The position numbers and the translations under genes were made by a program. Below are positions 54,827-64,000 of a stretch of 64,000 nt of DNA, one piece after another. Below the pieces are notes generated by a model, which made no database searches, was not told the DNA's origin, and worked only from the letters and a program-made list of their open reading frames with translations. The first letter of the stretch is position 1, and each line of letters starts with the position of its first letter. The DNA lies in contig CAXXFF010000004.1 in the NCBI GenBank assembly GCA_963676835.2, positions 256,001 through 320,000 on the forward strand, given 5' to 3'. This stretch comes from Marispirochaeta sp. (lineage in GTDB: Bacteria > Spirochaetota > Spirochaetia > JC444 > Marispirochaetaceae).

Positions 54827-55282
54827 TCAATTAAGATAGGTACTGAAGCTGTCAAAGATATGATAGCGCCTAAGGTCCGGAAGATTACCGATTACTATCC
54901 GGTTTTCATATTCCACCCAGGCGTGGGCTTCAAAGGGTTCATCCCCCCCCATGGCAACTCCAACTTTAAGCTCAACAGAATAGCCCTGACGGCGGCATAG
55001 AGTATATGCAGTAAAGGCCCGGGGCAGACAGTTGTAGGTTCCGGGAAGCAGCCTCCCCCATATTTCAACCCAGCGGCAGGTATCAACAACACCTGCGTCG
55101 AATCCACCGGCTGGAGACTTCTCCGCCTGCTGCTTTAAACGGCTTACGGCCTGCTGAAAAGGGTATCGGCGGAGAACCAGCCTTGTGCTGAAAAGCATCA
55201 TCCCCGCCTGGAGAAACGCAGCCTTCCCCCTGGAGGGAAGCGCGTAAAAGCGGCGGATTTTATTAAGCAAGCGTATCCACAA
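54827..55282 (-). CDS. Lasso-type leader peptidase B2 (transglutaminase-like)
   Basis: NCLPRA...G..VELKVGV...FEAHAWVE catalytic Cys/His motif; coupled to upstream PqqD gene; start uncertain (TTG 55282 or 55270). Confidence 0.85.
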   Translation of the reverse strand: MWIRLLNKIRRFYALPSRGKAAFLQAGMMLFSTRLVLRRYPFQQAVSRLKQQAEKSPAGGFDAGVVDTCRWVEIWGRLLPGTYNCLPRAFTAYTLCRRQGYSVELKVGVAMGGDEPFEAHAWVEYENRIVIGNLPDLRRYHIFDSFSTYLN

Positions 55283-55538
55283 GACCTTCTTCTCCAAGTT
55301 TCTCCGCAAGGGCGAGAATATCCTCCCTGCACTGATCTTCTGCAACATCGAATTCCTGCTGAACCAGGGAACACAGACCTGCAAGGGATTCAGCCTTAAC
55401 AATATTCTTCCAGATAAAAGCTCCTACTTCATTGAGACTGAAATAGAAACCACGTTCAACATGCATGAGCACCATTTCACCGTTTACTTCGGTATGAATA
55501 ACCCCTTCCCGCTGCTGTATCCGTGTATTTAAATCCAT
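55263..55538 (-). CDS. PqqD/RRE protein (lasso B1)
   Basis: EVNGEMVLM..G.YFSLNEVGAFIW, FDVAEDQCREDI..L..EGLV. Confidence 0.9.
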   Translation of the reverse strand: MDLNTRIQQREGVIHTEVNGEMVLMHVERGFYFSLNEVGAFIWKNIVKAESLAGLCSLVQQEFDVAEDQCREDILALAEKLGEEGLVDTLA

Positions 55539-55656: not shown

Positions 55657-56868
55657 ATGAAAAAAACAGCAGAAGAAGAAATACTGATCGCACTGACTGC
55701 GGATAGAACCGACAGGGCAGTGTCAATTATAAAAGCCGAAGATCCGGATTACCGGAAACTGCTTCAATTAGCGGCGAAGCACAAACTTCACGGTATTACC
55801 GCCCAGAAACTGCTGGATATTTCCCGGCAGACTGGAATTGAACTGTCCGAAGCCGATATTACCGGAACCCTCCAGGCGGCGGTGGCCATGAATATGCAGC
55901 TGAAAGCCGGGTTTCTTGGTGTAAAGGAGATGCTGAAAAAAGAGCAGGTTGATTTCCTGCTGATAAAAGGCTTTGCCCTGGATCCGTCCCCTTTGAGGGC
56001 AATGAATGATATCGACATCCTTATCCGGGAGGATAAAATTCGTCAGGTTTTTGAGGCAATGACCGCCGGGGGCTACACCTACATGGGCAGTAATGTCATG
56101 ACAAAAGAGGAATTTGCCGACCCCTTTTCCACCCTCCACTGGAACAACCAGTTTCAGTTCAGATCGCCCCGGGTACCGGCGGATATTGAAATTCACACAG
56201 AACTGTTTGAACGGGACAGAATACGGCTGGAACGGCTTGACCGGTTTCTGGACAAGGCTGAGTTTTTCTGGGAAAACCGCAGATACCGGAAAGACCTCGA
56301 CTGTTACATACCGTCTCCGGAAGCAAATCTTGCCCTGCTGACCATCCACTGCACCACAAAACGTTCACCCGCCCACAACACCTATATTCTTCGCCATGCT
56401 TACGACCTGCACGCCCTGCTTGGGGAAAATCGTGACATGGAGAATATAGTGAATATGGAAAGATTTCTCTACCTCTGCAGTGAGTGGAAAATCGGCTACT
56501 ACGCCTATACTGCCTTCCGGCTTACAGCTCTGGCCCTTGATCTGCCGGATATCCTTGAAAAAGCTGAACTGTTGAAACCGCTCTTAACCAGGCGGGAGCT
56601 GATCCTCTCCAACCTGCACCTCAACTGCTACCGGGGCCTGGGAGATGCATCTTTTTTACGGCGGAAACTGTTTGCCCTGTTTATGCCCTTTGCCATAGGG
56701 GGCAGCGTAAAAAAAGGGGTAAGCTGGTACAGGAAAATACTCTTTCCCCCGGCATGGTACCAGGAGGAGCGGTACGGCATAAAAAGAAGTTCTCCCTTCT
56801 TCTTTCTCAGTTATATCTACGGACCCTTTGTTTTTCTGTGGCGGCGACTTACAGGGCTGAGTGAATAA
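55657..56868 (+). CDS. Nucleotidyltransferase family protein (NTP_transf_5-like)
   Basis: LIKGFAL, R.MNDIDILI, IEIH motifs. Confidence 0.82.
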   Translation: MKKTAEEEILIALTADRTDRAVSIIKAEDPDYRKLLQLAAKHKLHGITAQKLLDISRQTGIELSEADITGTLQAAVAMNMQLKAGFLGVKEMLKKEQVDFLLIKGFALDPSPLRAMNDIDILIREDKIRQVFEAMTAGGYTYMGSNVMTKEEFADPFSTLHWNNQFQFRSPRVPADIEIHTELFERDRIRLERLDRFLDKAEFFWENRRYRKDLDCYIPSPEANLALLTIHCTTKRSPAHNTYILRHAYDLHALLGENRDMENIVNMERFLYLCSEWKIGYYAYTAFRLTALALDLPDILEKAELLKPLLTRRELILSNLHLNCYRGLGDASFLRRKLFALFMPFAIGGSVKKGVSWYRKILFPPAWYQEERYGIKRSSPFFFLSYIYGPFVFLWRRLTGLSE

Positions 56869-56907: not shown

Positions 56908-58734
56908 TCAGGACTCTTTTATCTGACGCAGCTGGGTATGATAGAGCCCTGCATAATAGCCGGCTGCCTGAACAAGCTCATCGTGGGAGCCCTCCTCTAT
57001 TACCCGGCCGCCCCGCATAACATAGATTCGGTCCGCCCGGCGTGCAGCGGCAATCTTGTGGCTTACCAGAAGCAGACTGCCTCCTCCCACAATACCCCTT
57101 ATATTGTCGATAAAATCTGATTCCGAGGGTGGATCAAGCTCCGCGGTGGGCTCATCGAGGATAGTAAAGGGTGCTCCCCGGAAAACGGTACGGGCCAGAG
57201 CTACTTTTTTCCACTGACCTCCGCTCAGTTCCGCACCGTCTTCGAGCCAGCGGCCGAGGACAGTCCCGTATCCGTCGGGTAAAGCCTTTAGAAACTCATG
57301 GGCGCCGACTTTTTCCGCCGCCTCATGCAGGGCAGAATTATTGTCATTGGTTATATCACCGTAGCGGATATTCTCAGCGGCGGTATAGTAGTAGTGGGTA
57401 AAATCCTGAAAGAGCACACCCAGATTTTTACGATACTCCTCAGGCTCCAGGCTGCGCAGATCGGTGCCGTTCAGGCAGACCCTGCCCTCATCGGGTTCAT
57501 AAAACCTGCAGAGCAGGTTGATAAGGGTACTTTTACCTGCACCGTTGTCTCCCACAATGGCAACAAACTCGCCGGGGGCTATTTTGAGTGAAACCCTGTC
57601 GAGAACCTTGTTTGCGGTTCCGGGGTAATGAAAACTGACGGATTCAACCGAGAGACCCCGGCTGTCATCAATAAGCGGTCCATCGCCGCCGGCTTTACCC
57701 TCACCTGTCGCCTCTTTTACCTTTTCAACCTCCACCGGCAGATTCAGAAACTCAAAAACCGCCGACAGGTATAAATTGGTCTCATACAGACGGGCCACGC
57801 CCCGAAGCAGATCGGACATGGCCTGCTGGCCCCGCTGGATAGCCTGAAAGAAAAGTACAAGATTTCCCAGAGAGGTTCCGCTGGTAATGCTTGTGTAGGC
57901 AAAATATCCTAAAAGCCCAATGGTAATGAGCGACTGGAATGCAACGGCAAAGAATTCACCCGCCGCCCGGCGGCCGGTAAGAGACAGAAGCTCTCTGCGG
58001 AGCCTGATTCTCCAGGAAGAGGCCTTCTCCTGAAAATGGTCCTGCAGACCGTTGATACGGTTTTCCCGTACATTGGTTTTATCTGTAAGCAGCCAGTTAA
58101 GATAAAAAACATGCCGTTCCGAGGAGGTCTGCTCCATTCGCCAGGCATAGATCCTGGCAGACGAGGAGAGAAGCACCAGAGCCACCGGCAGTGCAGAAAC
58201 TGCCAGAAGCAGAATGGTAAACCAGGGAAGAGTGTAAATAAGCAGCCCCGCAATACCGGCAATGGAGACAGCGGAGCTTATGAGGCCGGTTACAATATCT
58301 ACAATCTGGGCAGGACGGTAGGGCGCTTCCGCCTGAGCCCGGTGAAGCTTGTCGTGAAACTCGGGCACCTCATAATAGGCAAGATCGAGCTCCACCGACT
58401 TCTGTTGAACCACACCCTGCATATAGTCGCTTAATACCTGCCCCTGCACCTGACGGAGAAAATTGCCCCCGGTGCGGAACAGGGCGGACAAAAGGAGCGC
58501 TGCCCCGGTAAGCATAATTACCGGCAGAATCTCCGCAAAGCCGCCGCCGGCCGCCAGGGTATCCACCATGAGTTTTACCGCATAGAGGGGAACAAGGGGG
58601 ACAATCCCCTGAAATGTCATAACAGTAACTGTAAGCAGGCTTAAGCCGGGGCTGCTTTTCCAGAGCAGCCCGATACCACGGGAAAATACGCCGGCCCCTT
58701 TCCTGAGGCGCAGTATGCGGCCGGAAAGGTTCAC
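56908..58734 (-). CDS. ABC exporter (fused TMD + ATPase)
   Basis: GDNGAGKST, LSGGQW, ILDEPT; N-terminal TM domain. Confidence 0.92.
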   Translation of the reverse strand: MNLSGRILRLRKGAGVFSRGIGLLWKSSPGLSLLTVTVMTFQGIVPLVPLYAVKLMVDTLAAGGGFAEILPVIMLTGAALLLSALFRTGGNFLRQVQGQVLSDYMQGVVQQKSVELDLAYYEVPEFHDKLHRAQAEAPYRPAQIVDIVTGLISSAVSIAGIAGLLIYTLPWFTILLLAVSALPVALVLLSSSARIYAWRMEQTSSERHVFYLNWLLTDKTNVRENRINGLQDHFQEKASSWRIRLRRELLSLTGRRAAGEFFAVAFQSLITIGLLGYFAYTSITSGTSLGNLVLFFQAIQRGQQAMSDLLRGVARLYETNLYLSAVFEFLNLPVEVEKVKEATGEGKAGGDGPLIDDSRGLSVESVSFHYPGTANKVLDRVSLKIAPGEFVAIVGDNGAGKSTLINLLCRFYEPDEGRVCLNGTDLRSLEPEEYRKNLGVLFQDFTHYYYTAAENIRYGDITNDNNSALHEAAEKVGAHEFLKALPDGYGTVLGRWLEDGAELSGGQWKKVALARTVFRGAPFTILDEPTAELDPPSESDFIDNIRGIVGGGSLLLVSHKIAAARRADRIYVMRGGRVIEEGSHDELVQAAGYYAGLYHTQLRQIKES

Positions 58735-59735
58735 CGTACCACCTGAGAGCGGCCCGGGGCGGCATTAAGAAACGCTATAACATCAGGCAATCGTTCATAG
58801 CCTTCGGGAATGTTCAAAATCTGAACAGGAACCTGAGCCGCCACGGCACCTATCATGCCCAGACGTTTCTGTCCCCGGTCTACCGCATCCAGAAGCTCCG
58901 CTGCAAAGGCATGTCGAACCAGGGACATAACCCCTTCTGCTGCTCCTACAGGAGTTACAGAAGGTTGATCAGAGCCGTTTCGGCTGAGAAAATAGATTGC
59001 AGTAAGAGGTAGGTTATGAGAATAGAATGATCCTAACTGCTCACTGTGCTGCGGAACCTTCAGCCCCCGTTGGCCCGCCAGGCTTATAGAACCTACAGGA
59101 ATTTTAAGCTTTTCGAAGCCCGGGTGTATTTTTCCGTAATTATCCGGATTTCCCCCTAAAATTTTCAGCTGATGAGAAAAGAGCTTCATCTGGGGAAATC
59201 CCGGAAAAGCTGTAACTCCATCAGGTCCCACGGACAAAGCCAGAATATCATCAGTTACCAGGGGATACCCCCCTGCGACACAGGCGGTAGCCAGGGTGGT
59301 TTTACCGGTGCCGGAATCTGCAATAAAAGCGACGCAGCCGTCTCCTGCCTTGACGGCCGATGCATGCAGCATAAGAATACCCTGCCGCTCCAGCCAGAAG
59401 GACATAACATTGCCCACAAAGAAGATCTCAATAAGATATTCAATATCCGGCAGCAGAGGATGGGCGGTAATCTCATTACCCCGCATTTCAAATCCGCAGA
59501 CCCCGGTTATGTAGAGGGTCTCGCAGGTTTCGGAAAGAAAAAGCTCCACCCGGCCCCCCTCATAGTTTTCCACCGGGGCACGGACCCCTTCCGGAGTGTA
59601 CTCCGGGTTTACGGGCAGCACGGAAAAAGAGAGATCTACTTCGCCCCGGGGCTCCTCCGGAGGCAGGAGATTGAAAGTAAAGGGAAAGGATGAAGCGAGA
59701 TGCGCTCCGTAAAGCATGTAACGGGATTCATTCAT
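58731..59735 (-). CDS. HprK-related kinase (lasso-cluster type)
   Basis: LHASAV, DSGTGKTT Walker A, LVTDD. Confidence 0.82.
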   Translation of the reverse strand: MNESRYMLYGAHLASSFPFTFNLLPPEEPRGEVDLSFSVLPVNPEYTPEGVRAPVENYEGGRVELFLSETCETLYITGVCGFEMRGNEITAHPLLPDIEYLIEIFFVGNVMSFWLERQGILMLHASAVKAGDGCVAFIADSGTGKTTLATACVAGGYPLVTDDILALSVGPDGVTAFPGFPQMKLFSHQLKILGGNPDNYGKIHPGFEKLKIPVGSISLAGQRGLKVPQHSEQLGSFYSHNLPLTAIYFLSRNGSDQPSVTPVGAAEGVMSLVRHAFAAELLDAVDRGQKRLGMIGAVAAQVPVQILNIPEGYERLPDVIAFLNAAPGRSQVVR

Positions 59736-60933
59736 GTACAAGAAGCCCCTGTTCCTTCAAAGATGCGGCAAAATGCTCCAGATCCTTTCGAATCTCTTCC
59801 GGATCGGCATCGTAGAGGCCCGCGAGCTCTTCCGCGGCCTTTACGGTACTCTCTGCCCGAAGCAGTATATCCCACATATCCGCCGCTGTGTCTTCCAGAA
59901 GGAAACAATCTCTTCCCTGCTCTTCTCCGTTTTCGGTAAAGTCAGCCACAACAATGCGGTTTTCACCGATCCTGGCGGCCACAACTTCAGGGGCGGCAGT
60001 CCAGCCGGAAGGGCTGTCCTCATGCAGCTGAACAGTCCCCCGGTCTTCTCCTTCAAAACGGTTTCTAAAACAGCGCTGCGGAGGATAGAGGCGAAAGGCA
60101 AGTTCAATTTCGTCGGTAACGGAATTAATAAAGACACTTTCCGGTTCGCTCCAGGAGAAAACTATTGTTTTTGGATGACCTGTCCAGAGAACCTTTTCAC
60201 CTGATTTACTCTCCCATCCCGATTTCCACTGGGCATAGGTTTCTCCGTACATCTCCGGAGCCTGGTCCTGGTACTCCATGGCCGCCGTAATGGGAAAAGA
60301 CTGATGAACTCCACCTTTACCGTTACAAAGAGATTCCGGTGCAGCCAGAACCGCAACATGAACCTCCCGGTGGGGCTCCTGCTTCTGTATGGATTCGACT
60401 GTCTGGCGGATTCTGAAGCCCGAGAAAACCGCATCGTCCACAAGCAGAATTGGACGCTTTACCGCTTCCCCTCCCCTGCTCCCGGTTTCGGTCAATTTCC
60501 CCAGGGCATAGAGCAGCAGGCCGCAGACGATATATCCACCCCGGGGAACAGGTCTAATCTCAAACTGAGCCAGCCTCTCACGGCCGTATGTCCGGATAAG
60601 TTTCTCCGCAAGATCTTCCGCAAAATTTTCCGCCTCAGGGTAGCTGATATAGAGTGAATCTTTCAAAGTCTGGGGAATCTGGGTCGCCAGGCGGGCAATC
60701 AGTTCAACCCGCTCAGGAGATAAATCACCAAAAAGATAGATTCCTTCCTGCTCTTTTTTTTCTACATCATGGTGCAAACGAAGCACCATATATGCATCAC
60801 TCAGCCGGGAGTCCCGGTTCAGAGTATCTCCAAGTATCCGGAGAGCAGCGGCAGCATCTGAAGCGCCGGTCAGTTTTAAAAGGGATGAAGAATCTGTAGT
60901 TGTCGAGAATAGTTTAACTGCTTTAAATGACAT
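59728..60933 (-). CDS. Phosphoribosyltransferase-like domain fused to C-terminal PqqD/RRE
   Basis: PVPRGG loop and ILLVDDAVFSG PRPP-binding motif; C-terminus FLLEDTAADMW...YDADPEEIRKDL..F..SLKEQGLL resembles PqqD; start codon uncertain. Confidence 0.7.
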   Translation of the reverse strand: MSFKAVKLFSTTTDSSSLLKLTGASDAAAALRILGDTLNRDSRLSDAYMVLRLHHDVEKKEQEGIYLFGDLSPERVELIARLATQIPQTLKDSLYISYPEAENFAEDLAEKLIRTYGRERLAQFEIRPVPRGGYIVCGLLLYALGKLTETGSRGGEAVKRPILLVDDAVFSGFRIRQTVESIQKQEPHREVHVAVLAAPESLCNGKGGVHQSFPITAAMEYQDQAPEMYGETYAQWKSGWESKSGEKVLWTGHPKTIVFSWSEPESVFINSVTDEIELAFRLYPPQRCFRNRFEGEDRGTVQLHEDSPSGWTAAPEVVAARIGENRIVVADFTENGEEQGRDCFLLEDTAADMWDILLRAESTVKAAEELAGLYDADPEEIRKDLEHFAASLKEQGLLVHE

Positions 60934-60966
60934 AAAAAACCGGGCACCATGTTACCACGGGCCCGG
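60934..60966 (-). terminator. Rho-independent terminator/attenuator after precursor A1
   Basis: Minus strand CCGGGCCCGTGG-taa-CATGGTGCCCGG followed by T6. Confidence 0.7.
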
Positions 60967-61012
60967 GACCTCTATTCGTTAAGATTAATAGAAAAATAGT
61001 ATATCAGAGATA

Positions 61013-61198
61013 CTAAATAATACTGCTGGTTGTTTTAATTGGCGATCCGCCTTCTGAAACCGTACCGGCGCCGCTTCCTTCACTGCTGCTTCCCTTTCCA
61101 CTGCCGAAAAGCGCCTCGATAATGCCTGACTGCGTAAGATCGGCTACACTACCCCACTCTTTAATCTGCGGTTTCTGGTATTGCTTTTTTGCCTGCAT
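61013..61198 (-). CDS. RiPP precursor A1 (61 aa, lasso-type leader)
   Basis: MQAKKQYQKPQIKEWGSVADLTQ|SGIIEALFGSGKGSSSEGSGAGTVSEGGSPIKTTSSII; GGGAG RBS. Confidence 0.8.
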   Translation of the reverse strand: MQAKKQYQKPQIKEWGSVADLTQSGIIEALFGSGKGSSSEGSGAGTVSEGGSPIKTTSSII

Positions 61199-61231
61199 AT
61201 TATTCTCCCTGAGATATATTCTCAATAAATA

Positions 61232-61260
61232 AGTGTATACCCCAATTTTACAGCGGTCAA
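61232..61260 (-). promoter_or_regulatory. Sigma-70 promoter for precursor A1
   Basis: TTGACC-17 bp-TACACT. Confidence 0.6.
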
Positions 61261-61306
61261 TGTTAAGATGAGAAAATAACCGGTATTTTTCAACTAAAGA
61301 AGGAGT

Positions 61307-61335
61307 TCCGTCTGTCTACCTGGTAAACAGACGGA
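61307..61335 (-). terminator. Stem-loop immediately after precursor A2
   Basis: TCCGTCTGT...ACAGACGGA perfect 9-bp stem. Confidence 0.55.
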
Positions 61336-61345
61336 TAGCAGTAAA

Positions 61346-61489
61346 TTAATACTCGCCCCGGGGACCGACGATCTCGATCACATTCAATGACCCGTTACCG
61401 CCGACTCTTTCTGTCAGCTTGGTAACTGTTCCCCACTGCTTTACTTCAGGCTTGGTGTAGGTTCGTTTTTCCTGTTTTTCGTTCTGCAT
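61346..61489 (-). CDS. RiPP precursor A2 (47 aa, not in ORF track)
   Basis: Manual translation MQNEKQEKRTYTKPEVKQWGTVTKLTE|RVGGNGSLNVIEIVGPRGEY*; AGGAG RBS; leader matches A1. Confidence 0.82.
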   Translation of the reverse strand: MQNEKQEKRTYTKPEVKQWGTVTKLTERVGGNGSLNVIEIVGPRGEY

Positions 61490-61521
61490 CTTTTTCTCCT
61501 TGAAAAGTTTTTAATGGGTAA

Positions 61522-61550
61522 AGTCTGCACGGTGTCAGCATAATTGTCAA
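61522..61550 (-). promoter_or_regulatory. Sigma-70 promoter for precursor A2
   Basis: TTGACA-17 bp-CAGACT. Confidence 0.5.
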
Positions 61551-61698
61551 GGTTTTCTTTGGCGTCCTGTGATGGATTCCCGGGGTTTGAATATTTCTGG
61601 TTCCGTACCCAATGTTACGGTTTCTTTTTCCCCACTATATTACTATTATTCTCAGAATAGACAAAAATCCAGAGAGAAAGCATACAGGACGGAGAAGC

Positions 61699-62952
61699 AT
61701 GAGTTTTATCAGCCTTGACGATACCATATTCACTATTACCGAAAAATATCCCGAAACGGTGGATATTTTTGTCAGCCGGGGGTTTCCCGGCATGTCCGAC
61801 TACAACCAGCGGGCCGGCTACGGCAGGCTGCTGAGCCTCAGAAATGCCCTGAAAACCAAGGGACTGAATGAGGAGCTTTTTACCGGGCTTCTCAACGAAG
61901 CAGTGGAGAACCAGAGGGGAGCTGCGGATATAACCCTGGCCAAAATTAAACACACAAGCAGTTCTAAAGCGGTAAAGATTGCGGGGCTTCTCCCCTGCCC
62001 GGTGCGTATTCCCCTTATGGAGGAGTTCAGCCGCTTCAGCCCTGAATACGAAAAAGCCTCGGGCTTGAGTCTGAGTGCAGAGCTGAAAGCCGCCAGCAGC
62101 GGAACGGAATGGGTAAAGGAGCACCTGGATGGGGAAACATCGGAAGAGACTCTGCCGGATATCTTCATCTCCGCCGGCTTCGACCTCTTTTTTGACCGTA
62201 AAAGAATCGGCAGATTGCGGGAGCAGGGAGCCTTCAAAGACCTGCTTAAGTGGGATAAAGAAAACAGCAGCTTTGAAGGCCTGGATATCCGGGACCCCGA
62301 CGGAGTCTACTCAATTCTGGCCCTGGTGCCTGCGGTGTTTCTTGTTAACACCGGCGAACTCGGGAACAGGCCAATTCCAAAAACCTGGAAGGAGCTTCTG
62401 ACAGAAGATTTTTACGACTCCGTATCCCTGCCTGTGGGAGACTTCGATCTCTTCAATGCCATGCTTCTCTCCCTACGACAGAAGTACGGCGATGATGCCA
62501 TCCGCATGCTGGGCAGGGTTATGCAGCAGGCAATGCATCCTTCCCAGATGGTAAAGAGTGACAAAAAACAGGGAAAACGACCGGCGGTAACCATTATGCC
62601 CTACTTTTTCACCAAAACAGTCCGGGACGGGGGAGCCATGCAGGCTGTATGGCCCGAGGACGGTGCGGTAATAAGCCCTATTTTTATGCTTGCCAAGGCA
62701 GCCCGTCAGGAGGAACTGCAGCCTGCGGCGGACTTCTTCGGCTCCAGTAATATCGGGGAAATACTTGCCCGGCAGGGGCTGTTTCCCTCCCTGCATCCGG
62801 ATGTAGACAATATCCTTCCCGAGAAGAGTCCCGTTATGTGGCTGGGCTGGGATTACATAAAAAACCATGACCTCAGTGAGGAGATTACAAAAGCAGAAGC
62901 TCTCTTTAACAGCTTTACAAAAGTATCAGAAAAAGAGGAGTCGGTACGATGA
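61699..62952 (+). CDS. ABC substrate-binding-fold protein with N-terminal DUF1858-like domain
   Basis: ITEKYPETVDIF..GF N-terminus; LPCPVR, PDIFISAGFD, WPEDGA; no signal peptide. Confidence 0.75.
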   Translation: MSFISLDDTIFTITEKYPETVDIFVSRGFPGMSDYNQRAGYGRLLSLRNALKTKGLNEELFTGLLNEAVENQRGAADITLAKIKHTSSSKAVKIAGLLPCPVRIPLMEEFSRFSPEYEKASGLSLSAELKAASSGTEWVKEHLDGETSEETLPDIFISAGFDLFFDRKRIGRLREQGAFKDLLKWDKENSSFEGLDIRDPDGVYSILALVPAVFLVNTGELGNRPIPKTWKELLTEDFYDSVSLPVGDFDLFNAMLLSLRQKYGDDAIRMLGRVMQQAMHPSQMVKSDKKQGKRPAVTIMPYFFTKTVRDGGAMQAVWPEDGAVISPIFMLAKAARQEELQPAADFFGSSNIGEILARQGLFPSLHPDVDNILPEKSPVMWLGWDYIKNHDLSEEITKAEALFNSFTKVSEKEESVR

Positions 62953-63650
62953 ATCTGGTAACAGTTTCCGGCCCGCCCTCTTCCGGAAAAACCGCGGTTA
63001 TTCTGAAAACAGCCGAGGCCCTGAGGCAGCAGGGAGTTCAGGTAGGGGTAGCCAAGTTTGACTGCCTCAGTACCGAAGACGATCAGCTCTATATAAAGGC
63101 GGGTATACCGGTACAGAAAGGACTCTCAGGGGCCCTCTGCCCGGACCACTACTTTGTCAGCAATATAGAGGAGGTTACCCAATGGGGGATAAAAGAGGGG
63201 CTGGATCTGCTCATCAGTGAGTCCGCCGGACTCTGCAACCGCTGTTCCCCTTATATAAAAGAGATCGGTGCGGTCTGCGTAATAGACAACCTGAGCGGAA
63301 TCAACACCCCGAAGAAGATCGGTCCCATGCTGAAAAGCGCGGATATTGTGGTCATAACCAAGGGAGACATTGTCTCCCAGGCGGAGCGGGAGGTCTTTGC
63401 CAGCAGGGTAGGCACGGTTAATCCCAGGGCCATGGTTATCCACGTTAACGGCCTTACCGGCCAGGGCGCCTTCGAACTGAGCACCCTTGTCTACGACAAG
63501 GAGAGCCGGGTAGAAACGGTAAAAGGCAGAGAGCTCCGCTTTCCCATGCCCTCAGCCCTCTGCTCCTACTGTCTGGGAGAAACCCGCATAGGCGAAGAGT
63601 TTCAGATGGGGAATGTCCGCAAGATTAAACTGGAGAAGAAGGATGACTGA
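62949..63650 (+). CDS. HypB/UreG/CobW-like (G3E) GTP-binding protein
   Basis: GPPSSGKT, CPDH, ESAGLCNRC, TKGD, CSYC. Confidence 0.82.
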   Translation: MNLVTVSGPPSSGKTAVILKTAEALRQQGVQVGVAKFDCLSTEDDQLYIKAGIPVQKGLSGALCPDHYFVSNIEEVTQWGIKEGLDLLISESAGLCNRCSPYIKEIGAVCVIDNLSGINTPKKIGPMLKSADIVVITKGDIVSQAEREVFASRVGTVNPRAMVIHVNGLTGQGAFELSTLVYDKESRVETVKGRELRFPMPSALCSYCLGETRIGEEFQMGNVRKIKLEKKDD

Positions 63651-64000
63651 GATAGGCAGCCTTATAGAGAATACTCCTTTAAGCAACCTGGTGGAGAAGT
63701 ACCCATTTCTAACGGACTATCTTGAATCTCTGGGTATTCCAGTCGTAACAGATACCTCTCTTCCCCTGGTAAAACACCTGAACAGCCTGGGGGATGAATT
63801 TCTTGAAGACAAAGCCATTGATGTTGAAGAGACTCTCAACGGCACAGTCAGTTATATCGAACAGATGCTTGAGTTTCTCGGAATGAGCAATCACCGGCTG
63901 GCAGAGGAGATAACAATTCTGCCGGGCAAAAATAAATCCGGAGAACCTGAAGGCTTTGAAAGCCTGACTATCCGCCGGGGAGAGATAATCTCCATAGTAG
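63643..64000 (+). CDS. ABC-type ATPase, 5' part (runs off window)
   Basis: Open frame MTEIGSL...GKNKSGEPE..L.IRRGEIISIV, the pattern that precedes a Walker A; overlaps GTPase stop. Confidence 0.65.
   Translation, partial: MTEIGSLIENTPLSNLVEKYPFLTDYLESLGIPVVTDTSLPLVKHLNSLGDEFLEDKAIDVEETLNGTVSYIEQMLEFLGMSNHRLAEEITILPGKNKSGEPEGFESLTIRRGEIISIV

What the first reader, a model, noticed from the sequence alone, without database searches (positions are those of the whole stretch)
61346..61489. Unannotated 47-aa second precursor below the ORF-calling cutoff
Seen: ATG at 61489 with AGGAG RBS, its own TTGACA-17-CAGACT promoter and a downstream hairpin. Its leader (YTKPEVKQWGTVTKLTE) aligns position for position with A1 (YQKPQIKEWGSVADLTQ), but the predicted core RVGGNGSLNVIEIVGPRGEY is unrelated. 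A conserved leader with a divergent core is the classic RiPP signature.
Basis: seen in the sequence. Interest (0 to 1): 0.75.

Follow-up and report, generated by a model that had tools for sequence, protein, structure and literature searches.

The report
Accessory precursor of ringless lasso-type cluster
This is a real small gene for a peptide precursor with a lasso-type leader and a fast-changing tail, placed in front of a processing cluster that lacks the ring-closing enzyme, so it likely yields a short linear, possibly decorated peptide; extra precursors are ordinary, but this ringless lineage has not been studied.

Summary
The 47-codon ORF, RBS and hairpin are as described; the promoter's -10 box is weak (3/6). 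Coding is well supported: leader differences from four paralogues fall on third codon positions (9-12 of 16) not second (0-2 of 16); a related organism in another study keeps the frame with 1 change in 81 leader bases and 16 in 60 core bases. 'Below the ORF cutoff' is wrong: the exact protein is already a called, unnamed gene. It is one of three precursors (a third lies on another contig) and is absent from the one congener genome with the cluster. The cluster has B1, B2, kinase, nucleotidyltransferase, ABC exporter and a PRTase-RRE fusion but no lasso cyclase; 49 of 51 cores from cyclase-bearing relatives have Asp/Glu at 7-9, against 1 of 7 in this clade. Best reading: RRE-bound, B2-cut linear 20-mer with a strain-variable core; tailoring untested; no expression data. 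Multiple precursors are ordinary (7 of 42 loci). The scan noted this cluster before, and cyclase-less lasso-type clusters in many other genomes.

The parts
61346..61489 (-). A2 precursor gene, 47 aa
   Evidence: codon-position pattern; frame kept in run X2; called protein
61409..61489 (-). A2 leader, residues 1-27: Tyr11-x-x-Pro14-x-Val16 (positions -17, -14, -12), Gly20 (-8), Thr26 (-2)
   Evidence: alignment; cleavage site inferred from the Thr(-2) rule
61349..61408 (-). predicted core, residues 28-47 (20 aa, 2085.10 Da monoisotopic); Glu only at core 12 and 19; one Ser at core 7; variable block is codons 31-41
61496..61501 (-). ribosome-binding site AAGGAG
   Evidence: unchanged in X2
61522..61550 (-). 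candidate promoter TTGACA-17-CAGACT (weak -10)
   Evidence: in X2 4 changes in the 17-nt spacer, 0 in the 12 hexamer bases
61307..61335 (-). 13-bp hairpin after A2 (stabiliser or leaky terminator, inferred)
   Evidence: X2 changes one loop base and one pair to a wobble
61232..61260 (-). A1 promoter-like site TTGACC-17-TACACT
   Evidence: equivalent site kept in G002
61013..61198 (-). A1 precursor, 61 aa, Ser/Gly-rich core
   Evidence: NF033521 23 bits over cut-off 19; orthologue in G002
60940..60966 (-). hairpin after A1 followed by a U run
   Evidence: G002 equivalent
59728..60933 (-). phosphoribosyltransferase-like domain fused to a C-terminal RRE
   Evidence: PF05402 over cut-off, PF00156 under cut-off; family
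58731..59741 (-). HprK-like P-loop kinase (start uncertain)
   Evidence: weak TIGR04352 match, 26.5 bits against cut-off 200; related genes in lasso loci
56908..58734 (-). ABC exporter (MsbA-like)
55657..56868 (+). NTP_transf_5 nucleotidyltransferase, opposite strand
   Evidence: PF14907 76 bits
55263..55538 (-). stand-alone RRE (B1)
   Evidence: PF05402; closest solved chains are lasso/LPP RREs 9x90, 5v1u, 6jx3, 9x8z
54827..55402 (-). lasso-type B2 leader peptidase with Cys and His motifs intact (start uncertain)
   Evidence: NF033537 81.3 bits over cut-off 33

Best explanation
A2 is a real 47-codon gene with a lasso-type leader, and its product is likely bound by the neighbouring cluster's RRE domains and likely cut by the B2 peptidase into a predicted linear (not lassoed) 20-residue peptide that would leave through the ABC exporter. 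Shown by sequence: the gene, its own RBS and hairpin, selection on the leader, the absence of a detectable lasso cyclase and of a ring acceptor at core positions 7-9, and a core that differs strongly between two related organisms while leader and C-terminal end stay fixed. Inferred: transcription from its own promoter; Tyr11/Pro14/Val16 docking in the RRE; cleavage after Glu27 (Thr at -2); export. Least certain: tailoring. The fused PRTase domain is predicted to receive the core (residues 34-40), and Ser34 is the only Ser/Thr available to the kinase and nucleotidyltransferase, but A2 lacks the Gly13-Ser/Thr14 motif common in the family's cores. It is best read as an add-on cassette that plugs a third, strain-variable core into shared machinery, as signal or antagonist.
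For: Leader codons versus four paralogues: second-position differences 0-2 of 16, third-position 9-12 of 16, Fisher p 0.0002-0.006. Run X2 (another study): 1 change in 81 leader bases, 16 in 60 core bases (p 3.5e-6, kinship not an issue for one pair), 0 in 32 bases of RBS/UTR, compensating +1/-1 inside the core, no stop when read by hand. Leader motif: 3 hits in the genome, 0 in each of 8 shuffles (pattern drawn from the leaders, so partly circular). Only one B1, one B2 and one fused RRE in the genome. No cyclase: the two AsnB genes score as glutamine-hydrolysing AsnB (498 and 441 bits) above the cyclase model (231, 209), whereas a true relative's cyclase scores the other way (250 against 135); single-contig G002 carries the cluster and has no such gene at all. 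Acceptor at 7-9 in 49 of 51 cores from cyclase-bearing loci against 1 of 7 in the G000/G002/G151 clade, a clade supported at 100/100. Cluster genes intact with dN/dS 0.09-0.19 between G000 and G002. Complex model PRTase-RRE + A2: score 0.66, best of 3 controls 0.00, mark reached by 116 of 157 solved and 2 of 215 mismatched pairs, run agreement at least 63%, partner pLDDT at least 58; RRE-leader complexes are solved, so the pass may be from memory. BsfB1+BsfB2 release a core in vitro without cyclase (PMC10368454 section 24).
Against: No RNA or peptide data. A2 is missing from G002 and no orthologue was found in 5.8 billion proteins, 400 class genomes or four other congeners, so the pathway does not need it. 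The X2 allele rests on one contig at depth 5.1, with 3 differences not shown. Arg at core position 1 occurs in 0 of 51 family cores and Glu at -1 in 2 of 51. A2 scores under the NCBIfam leader model that A1 and A3 pass. No Ser3, C-terminal Ser or Gly13-Ser14, the known or candidate kinase sites. G000 is 97% complete in 4 contigs, so a cyclase in a gap is not excluded.
Confidence: 0.68

Rival explanations
1. A2 is a true lasso precursor read in a shifted register (cut after Gly30, Val29 at -2, Gly31 as residue 1, Glu39 as ring residue 9, 8-residue tail), cyclised by an enzyme I did not find or left over from a cyclase-bearing donor cluster.
For: Glu39 and the last six residues are unchanged in X2; Ile/Val(-2) leaders exist in kinase-bearing lasso clusters (PMC10368454); A2 lies where relatives such as G361 have the cyclase gene; G000, unlike G002, has AsnB genes.
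Against: It puts Tyr at -20 instead of -17 and ignores a canonical Thr(-2); with several registers allowed an acidic residue at 7-9 is easy to find by chance; both AsnB genes are glutamine-hydrolysing type in polysaccharide loci; no cyclase-type gene in G000.
Confidence: 0.1
2. Only the leader matters: A2 is a decoy or dose regulator that ties up the RREs, or a fading relic, and its core is free to drift.
For: Accessory distribution; core lacks the family's conserved features; unusual Arg at +1.
Against: Codons 31-41 differ from X2 at 16 of 33 bases, about six times the rate of flanking intergenic DNA (13 of 167), while codons 24-30 and 42-47 do not differ at all: drift would be even and no faster than intergenic DNA. 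A block swap by recombination could give the same picture.
Confidence: 0.14
3. A chance ORF with no product.
For: 47 codons; weak -10 box; no expression data.
Against: Codon-position pattern, RBS rarity (0.8%), frame kept in X2, leader motif absent from shuffles.
Confidence: 0.03

Closest known systems
Kinase/nucleotidyltransferase-bearing lasso clusters (Bsf of Bradymonas, paeninodin, pseudomycoidin; PMC10368454, PMC8498205)
   Same: YxxPx-hydrophobic leader with Thr(-2), discrete RRE, B2 cysteine peptidase, HprK-like kinase, nucleotidyltransferase, ABC exporter
   Different: No cyclase; no Asp/Glu at core 7-9; no Ser3 or C-terminal Ser; extra PRTase-RRE fusion; three unlike precursors, one on another contig
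Linear polyphosphorylated peptides (LPP; Popov et al. 2026, PMC13381572)
   Same: Cyclase-less set of RRE, HprK kinase, NTP transferase and MsbA-like exporter; one to three precursors with conserved N and variable C termini; predicted linear product
   Different: LPP uses a SipW-like signal peptidase, this cluster a lasso B2; LPP leader consensus YxxPxVLxHQxIxFETxxS is not matched; LPP site Ser3 is Gly here; LPP described as restricted to Bacillota
Uncharacterised lasso clusters with a PRTase-RRE fusion (RREFam048 Phosphoribosyl_Transferase_RRE is listed in the supplement of PMC12710340; 73 loci)
   Same: Same leader type (Y.xP.[LIV]..WG.V..LT), PRTase-RRE then kinase directly behind the precursor, often several precursors
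   Different: 25 of 29 long loci have a cyclase-like gene and cores with Asp at 8/9; the G000/G002/G151 clade has neither. I did not score the protein against RREFam048 itself

Membership tests
Lasso peptides | Leader with [YW]xxPx-hydrophobic and Thr(-2) | tested here: met
   Tyr -17, Pro -14, Val -12, Gly -8, Thr -2; but under the NF033521 cut-off
Lasso peptides | RRE (B1) and B2 leader peptidase | tested here: met
Lasso peptides | Lasso cyclase (C) | tested here: not met
   none in the cluster; genome's AsnB genes rank as glutamine-hydrolysing AsnB; none in single-contig G002
Lasso peptides | Asp/Glu at core position 7-9 | tested here: not met
   Glu at 12 and 19 only; met only in a non-canonical shifted register
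Lasso peptides | Threaded macrolactam product | not testable with these tools
   needs MS and NMR
LPP (Popov 2026) | RRE + HprK kinase + NTP transferase + MsbA-like exporter without cyclase | tested here: met
   kinase match is weak
LPP (Popov 2026) | SipW/SpI-like leader peptidase in the cluster | tested here: not met
   no cluster ORF matched such a family; the peptidase is B2; the rest of the genome was not searched for SpI
LPP (Popov 2026) | Leader consensus YxxPxVLxHQxIxFETxxS and Ser at core 3 | tested here: not met
   compared with the consensus; A2 core position 3 is Gly
LPP (Popov 2026) | Polyphosphorylated linear product | not testable with these tools
   needs co-expression and MS
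RRE-dependent RiPP precursor (general) | Conserved leader, variable core, coding selection, cognate RRE nearby | tested here: met
RRE-dependent RiPP precursor (general) | Expression and processing in the cell | not testable with these tools
   no RNA holder listed

The most novel reading that the evidence does not exclude
A2 is the swappable specificity module of an undescribed, ringless offshoot of the lasso pathway in spirochaetes, in which a leader-gripping phosphoribosyltransferase puts a ribose-phosphate-type group on linear peptides whose middle diversifies between strains faster than neighbouring non-coding DNA, as a strain-specific signal or weapon.
Probability: 0.18. Interest if true: 0.75.

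Novelty: new variant of a known kind. Interest (0 to 1): 0.42.

Why it matters
A further precursor with a shared leader is ordinary RiPP anatomy. What gives it value is the setting: a B2-dependent cluster that has kept selection on all its enzymes after losing the cyclase, with three unrelated cores and a PRTase-RRE enzyme for which I found a profile name but no biochemical study. A2 and its X2 allele are short, nearly Ser/Thr-free natural substrates, which makes them clean probes for what the PRTase, kinase and nucleotidyltransferase do, a question left open in both PMC13381572 (LppN showed no effect) and PMC10368454 (BsfN untested).

Tried and rejected
No RNA holder listed for the stretch; not evidence either way. 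PRTase-clade search: 0 of 400 phylum genomes, 1 of 38 in G151's family, 2 of 7 in the order. No Rfam match in 60900-61750. No target-site duplication or terminal repeat evident around the cassette, so a transposon origin is not supported. A recent duplication of A1 is rejected: third positions differ at 12 of 16 leader codons. The NF033535 cut-off is not a usable cyclase test (a true cyclase scored 250 of 525); I used score ranking instead. The tailored promoter pattern was drawn from the two sites and is not counted as evidence. A genome-wide promoter/RBS background count was not obtained. Paper searches that found no description of this system: (open-access library only).

Full report
Observation. 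The minus strand carries ATG at 61489 and a 47-codon frame ending in TAA at 61346. AAGGAG lies 6 nt upstream; 111 of 13,390 ATG-started ORFs of 40-60 aa in this genome have AGGAG so placed. A 13-bp hairpin at 61335-61307 folds at -19.4 kcal/mol, z -4.28, with a weak U tail. TTGACA-17-CAGACT is there, but the -10 box is 3 of 6, the scan did not list it, and a loose version of the pattern occurs 9 times in the window against 4.97 +/- 2.37 expected. The leader aligns with A1 without gaps, 9 of 16 identical from Tyr to Thr. The title claim fails: the exact protein is in the predicted-protein collection from NCBI and ENA sources, unnamed. It is probably unnamed because it misses the NCBIfam leader model NF033521 that A1 (23 bits) and A3 (21.5) pass at cut-off 19.

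Is it a gene? Yes, by three tests. First, over the 16 leader codons A2 differs from its four paralogues at 0-2 second positions and 9-12 third positions. Second, a leader pattern hits three places in the genome and none in 8 shuffles (the pattern came from the leaders, so this is partly circular; a looser pattern gave 5 hits, 2 of them chance). Third, run X2, from another study, holds a 529-nt contig across the whole cassette. Of the listed differences, 1 falls in 81 leader bases (Thr23 to Ala, as in A1), 0 in 32 bases of RBS and untranslated leader, 0 in the 12 promoter hexamer bases but 4 in the 17-nt spacer, 16 in codons 31-41, and 0 in codons 42-48. One base left out and one put in cancel within the core. 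Read by hand, the frame stays open and of equal length; 7 of the 11 residues 31-41 change, Gly33, Val37, Glu39 and Ile40 stay (two through synonymous changes), and one Ser remains, one place later. Limits: one contig at depth 5.1, 3 differences not shown; X1 may be the source sample and is not counted; X3 does not cover the ORF. No RNA run was listed.

Distribution. Among five congeners and one family member only G002 has the cluster. G002 has A1 and the orphan A3 but lacks about 290 nt holding promoter, ORF and hairpin of A2. No A2 orthologue appears among 5.8 billion proteins or in 400 genomes of the class. Gain or loss cannot be ordered; saturation of third positions excludes a recent copy of A1, and no repeat marks the cassette ends.

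The machinery. Behind A2 and A1 lie a PRTase-like protein with a C-terminal RRE, an HprK-like kinase (weak match), an ABC exporter, a nucleotidyltransferase on the other strand, a stand-alone RRE and a B2 peptidase. These are the genome's only RRE and B2 genes. No lasso cyclase is in the cluster. The genome's two asparagine-synthase genes begin Met-Cys, lie among polysaccharide genes and score 498 and 441 bits as glutamine-hydrolysing AsnB against 231 and 209 as cyclase, while G361's cyclase scores 250 as cyclase and 135 as AsnB. Single-contig G002 (96% complete) has only a 22-bit PF00733 match, in a gene I recognise from recall as tilS. All six enzyme and transporter genes are intact with dN/dS 0.09-0.19 between G000 and G002, higher than most flanking genes (0.03-0.11) but far under 1; dS is near saturation, so these are rough.

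The family. The PRTase-RRE protein has 353 representatives at E 1e-30. One motif scan gave 73 genome loci. With five spirochaete loci added, one duplicate and the G002 locus set aside, and one chance leader match dropped, 47 of 78 loci have a cyclase-like hit of 85 bits or more (a few score equally as AsnB), and 25 of the 29 loci of 18 kb or more do. 51 distinct precursors from 42 of those loci share the leader type; 49 have Asp/Glu at core 7-9, and 7 of the 42 loci have more than one precursor. In a tree of 79 PRTase domains, G000, G002 and G151 fall in one clade at 100/100, beside cyclase-bearing spirochaete and Halomonadaceae loci at 97/81 (midpoint root, no test of direction, five clade members lack context). 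Of the 7 cores known from that clade 1 has an acceptor (G002 A3, Asp8). Kin are not independent, so this is three genomes, not seven events. Against a clean split: three precursors from short or cyclase-undetected loci (L050, L062, L031) do have acceptors, and four long loci without a cyclase hit showed no precursor.

Mechanism. Shown: gene, leader selection, missing cyclase, missing acceptor, variable core. Inferred from the lasso rules (PMC8498205 passages; PMC10368454 passages and section 24, where BsfB1 and BsfB2 cut the precursor without cyclase): RRE binding through Tyr11, Pro14, Val16, cleavage after Glu27, a linear 20-mer of 2085.10 Da, export. A complex model of PRTase-RRE with A2 scored 0.66, best of 3 controls 0.00 (mark reached by 116 of 157 solved and 2 of 215 mismatched pairs; agreement at least 63%, partner pLDDT at least 58). 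Its surest contacts put Tyr11, Pro14 and Val16 on RRE residues 344-388; A2 residues 34-40 and PRTase residues 169-175, just after the Asp-Asp motif, are also listed at the interface, from which I infer that the core would reach the active site. RRE-leader complexes are solved, so the pass may reflect likeness. Tailoring is the weak step: A2 has no Ser3, no C-terminal Ser and no Gly13-Ser14; Ser34 is its only Ser/Thr. Overall confidence 0.68; coding about 0.95.

Rivals. A shifted lasso register (Val at -2, Glu39 as ring residue 9) fits the conserved Glu and tail but needs an unseen cyclase and a non-canonical leader spacing (0.10). A decoy or relic with a free core does not fit a core that changes six times faster than flanking intergenic DNA (16 of 33 against 13 of 167 bases) between fixed ends, though one recombinational block swap could (0.14). 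Chance ORF 0.03.

Comparison. It works like an LPP (PMC13381572: outline, first three of twelve parts and Discussion read) but is not one: B2 instead of a SipW-like peptidase, another leader consensus, no Ser3. It is not a lasso peptide by two failed tests. That paper's introduction states that lasso clusters can carry several precursors with divergent cores. PMC12710340 lists RREFam048 Phosphoribosyl_Transferase_RRE in one supplementary row (main-text passages only). PMC10028931 passages added nothing. Eight searches of the open library found no description of a B2-dependent, cyclase-less PRTase-RRE cluster; subscription papers and bioRxiv supplements were not visible. Earlier scan notes flagged this cluster and its PRTase-RRE gene, and 97 notes in at least 86 genomes hold the cyclase-related search words; they are leads, not support.

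Verdict. Real, accessory precursor with a strain-variable core in a ringless offshoot of the lasso pathway. The precursor itself is ordinary anatomy; the lineage is a new variant of a known kind. Interest 0.42.

Noticed in passing
G000:C2:20051-20212 (+) = L007:2051-2212; orthologue L020:1501-1659 in G002: Third, orphan precursor (A3) with the same leader, own promoter-like site, RBS and strong terminator-like hairpin (z -5.2), next to a response-regulator-like gene, far from any RRE; kept at the same place in G002 with a much changed core that shares ICIP.
   Followed up: partly
L038:9221-16274 (G151:C35): A second spirochaete family has a cyclase-less cluster of the same clade with two unlike precursors, two kinase-like genes and a PRTase that stops before the RRE domain.
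   Followed up: partly
L041:1943-7660 (G124) and L040:1-2519 (G025): Precursors with the same leader type but cores of only 7 residues, followed by a lipoprotein-like gene and a nucleotidyltransferase; no cyclase found in G124 (92% complete).
   Followed up: no
51 cores from cyclase-bearing PRTase-RRE loci (L042-L114, L036): Besides the Asp at 8/9, the cores conserve Thr/Ser at 4 (53%) and Gly13-Ser/Thr14 (Ser/Thr 57%); candidate sites for the kinase or PRTase. A1 of G000 and A3 of G002 keep Gly13-Ser14; A2 does not.
   Followed up: partly
window 55657-56868 (+): The nucleotidyltransferase runs against the rest of the cluster, as it also does in G002 and G151.
   Followed up: no
window 61699-64000 (+): Divergent operon: DUF1858/SBP_bac_6 protein, CobW-like GTPase and an ABC-type ATPase, conserved in G002; shares the intergenic region with the A2 promoter.
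   Followed up: no
L101 and L102 (Halomonadaceae): Cyclase-bearing loci with two or three precursors, one with Asp at core 1 and 10 and no acceptor at 7-9.
   Followed up: no
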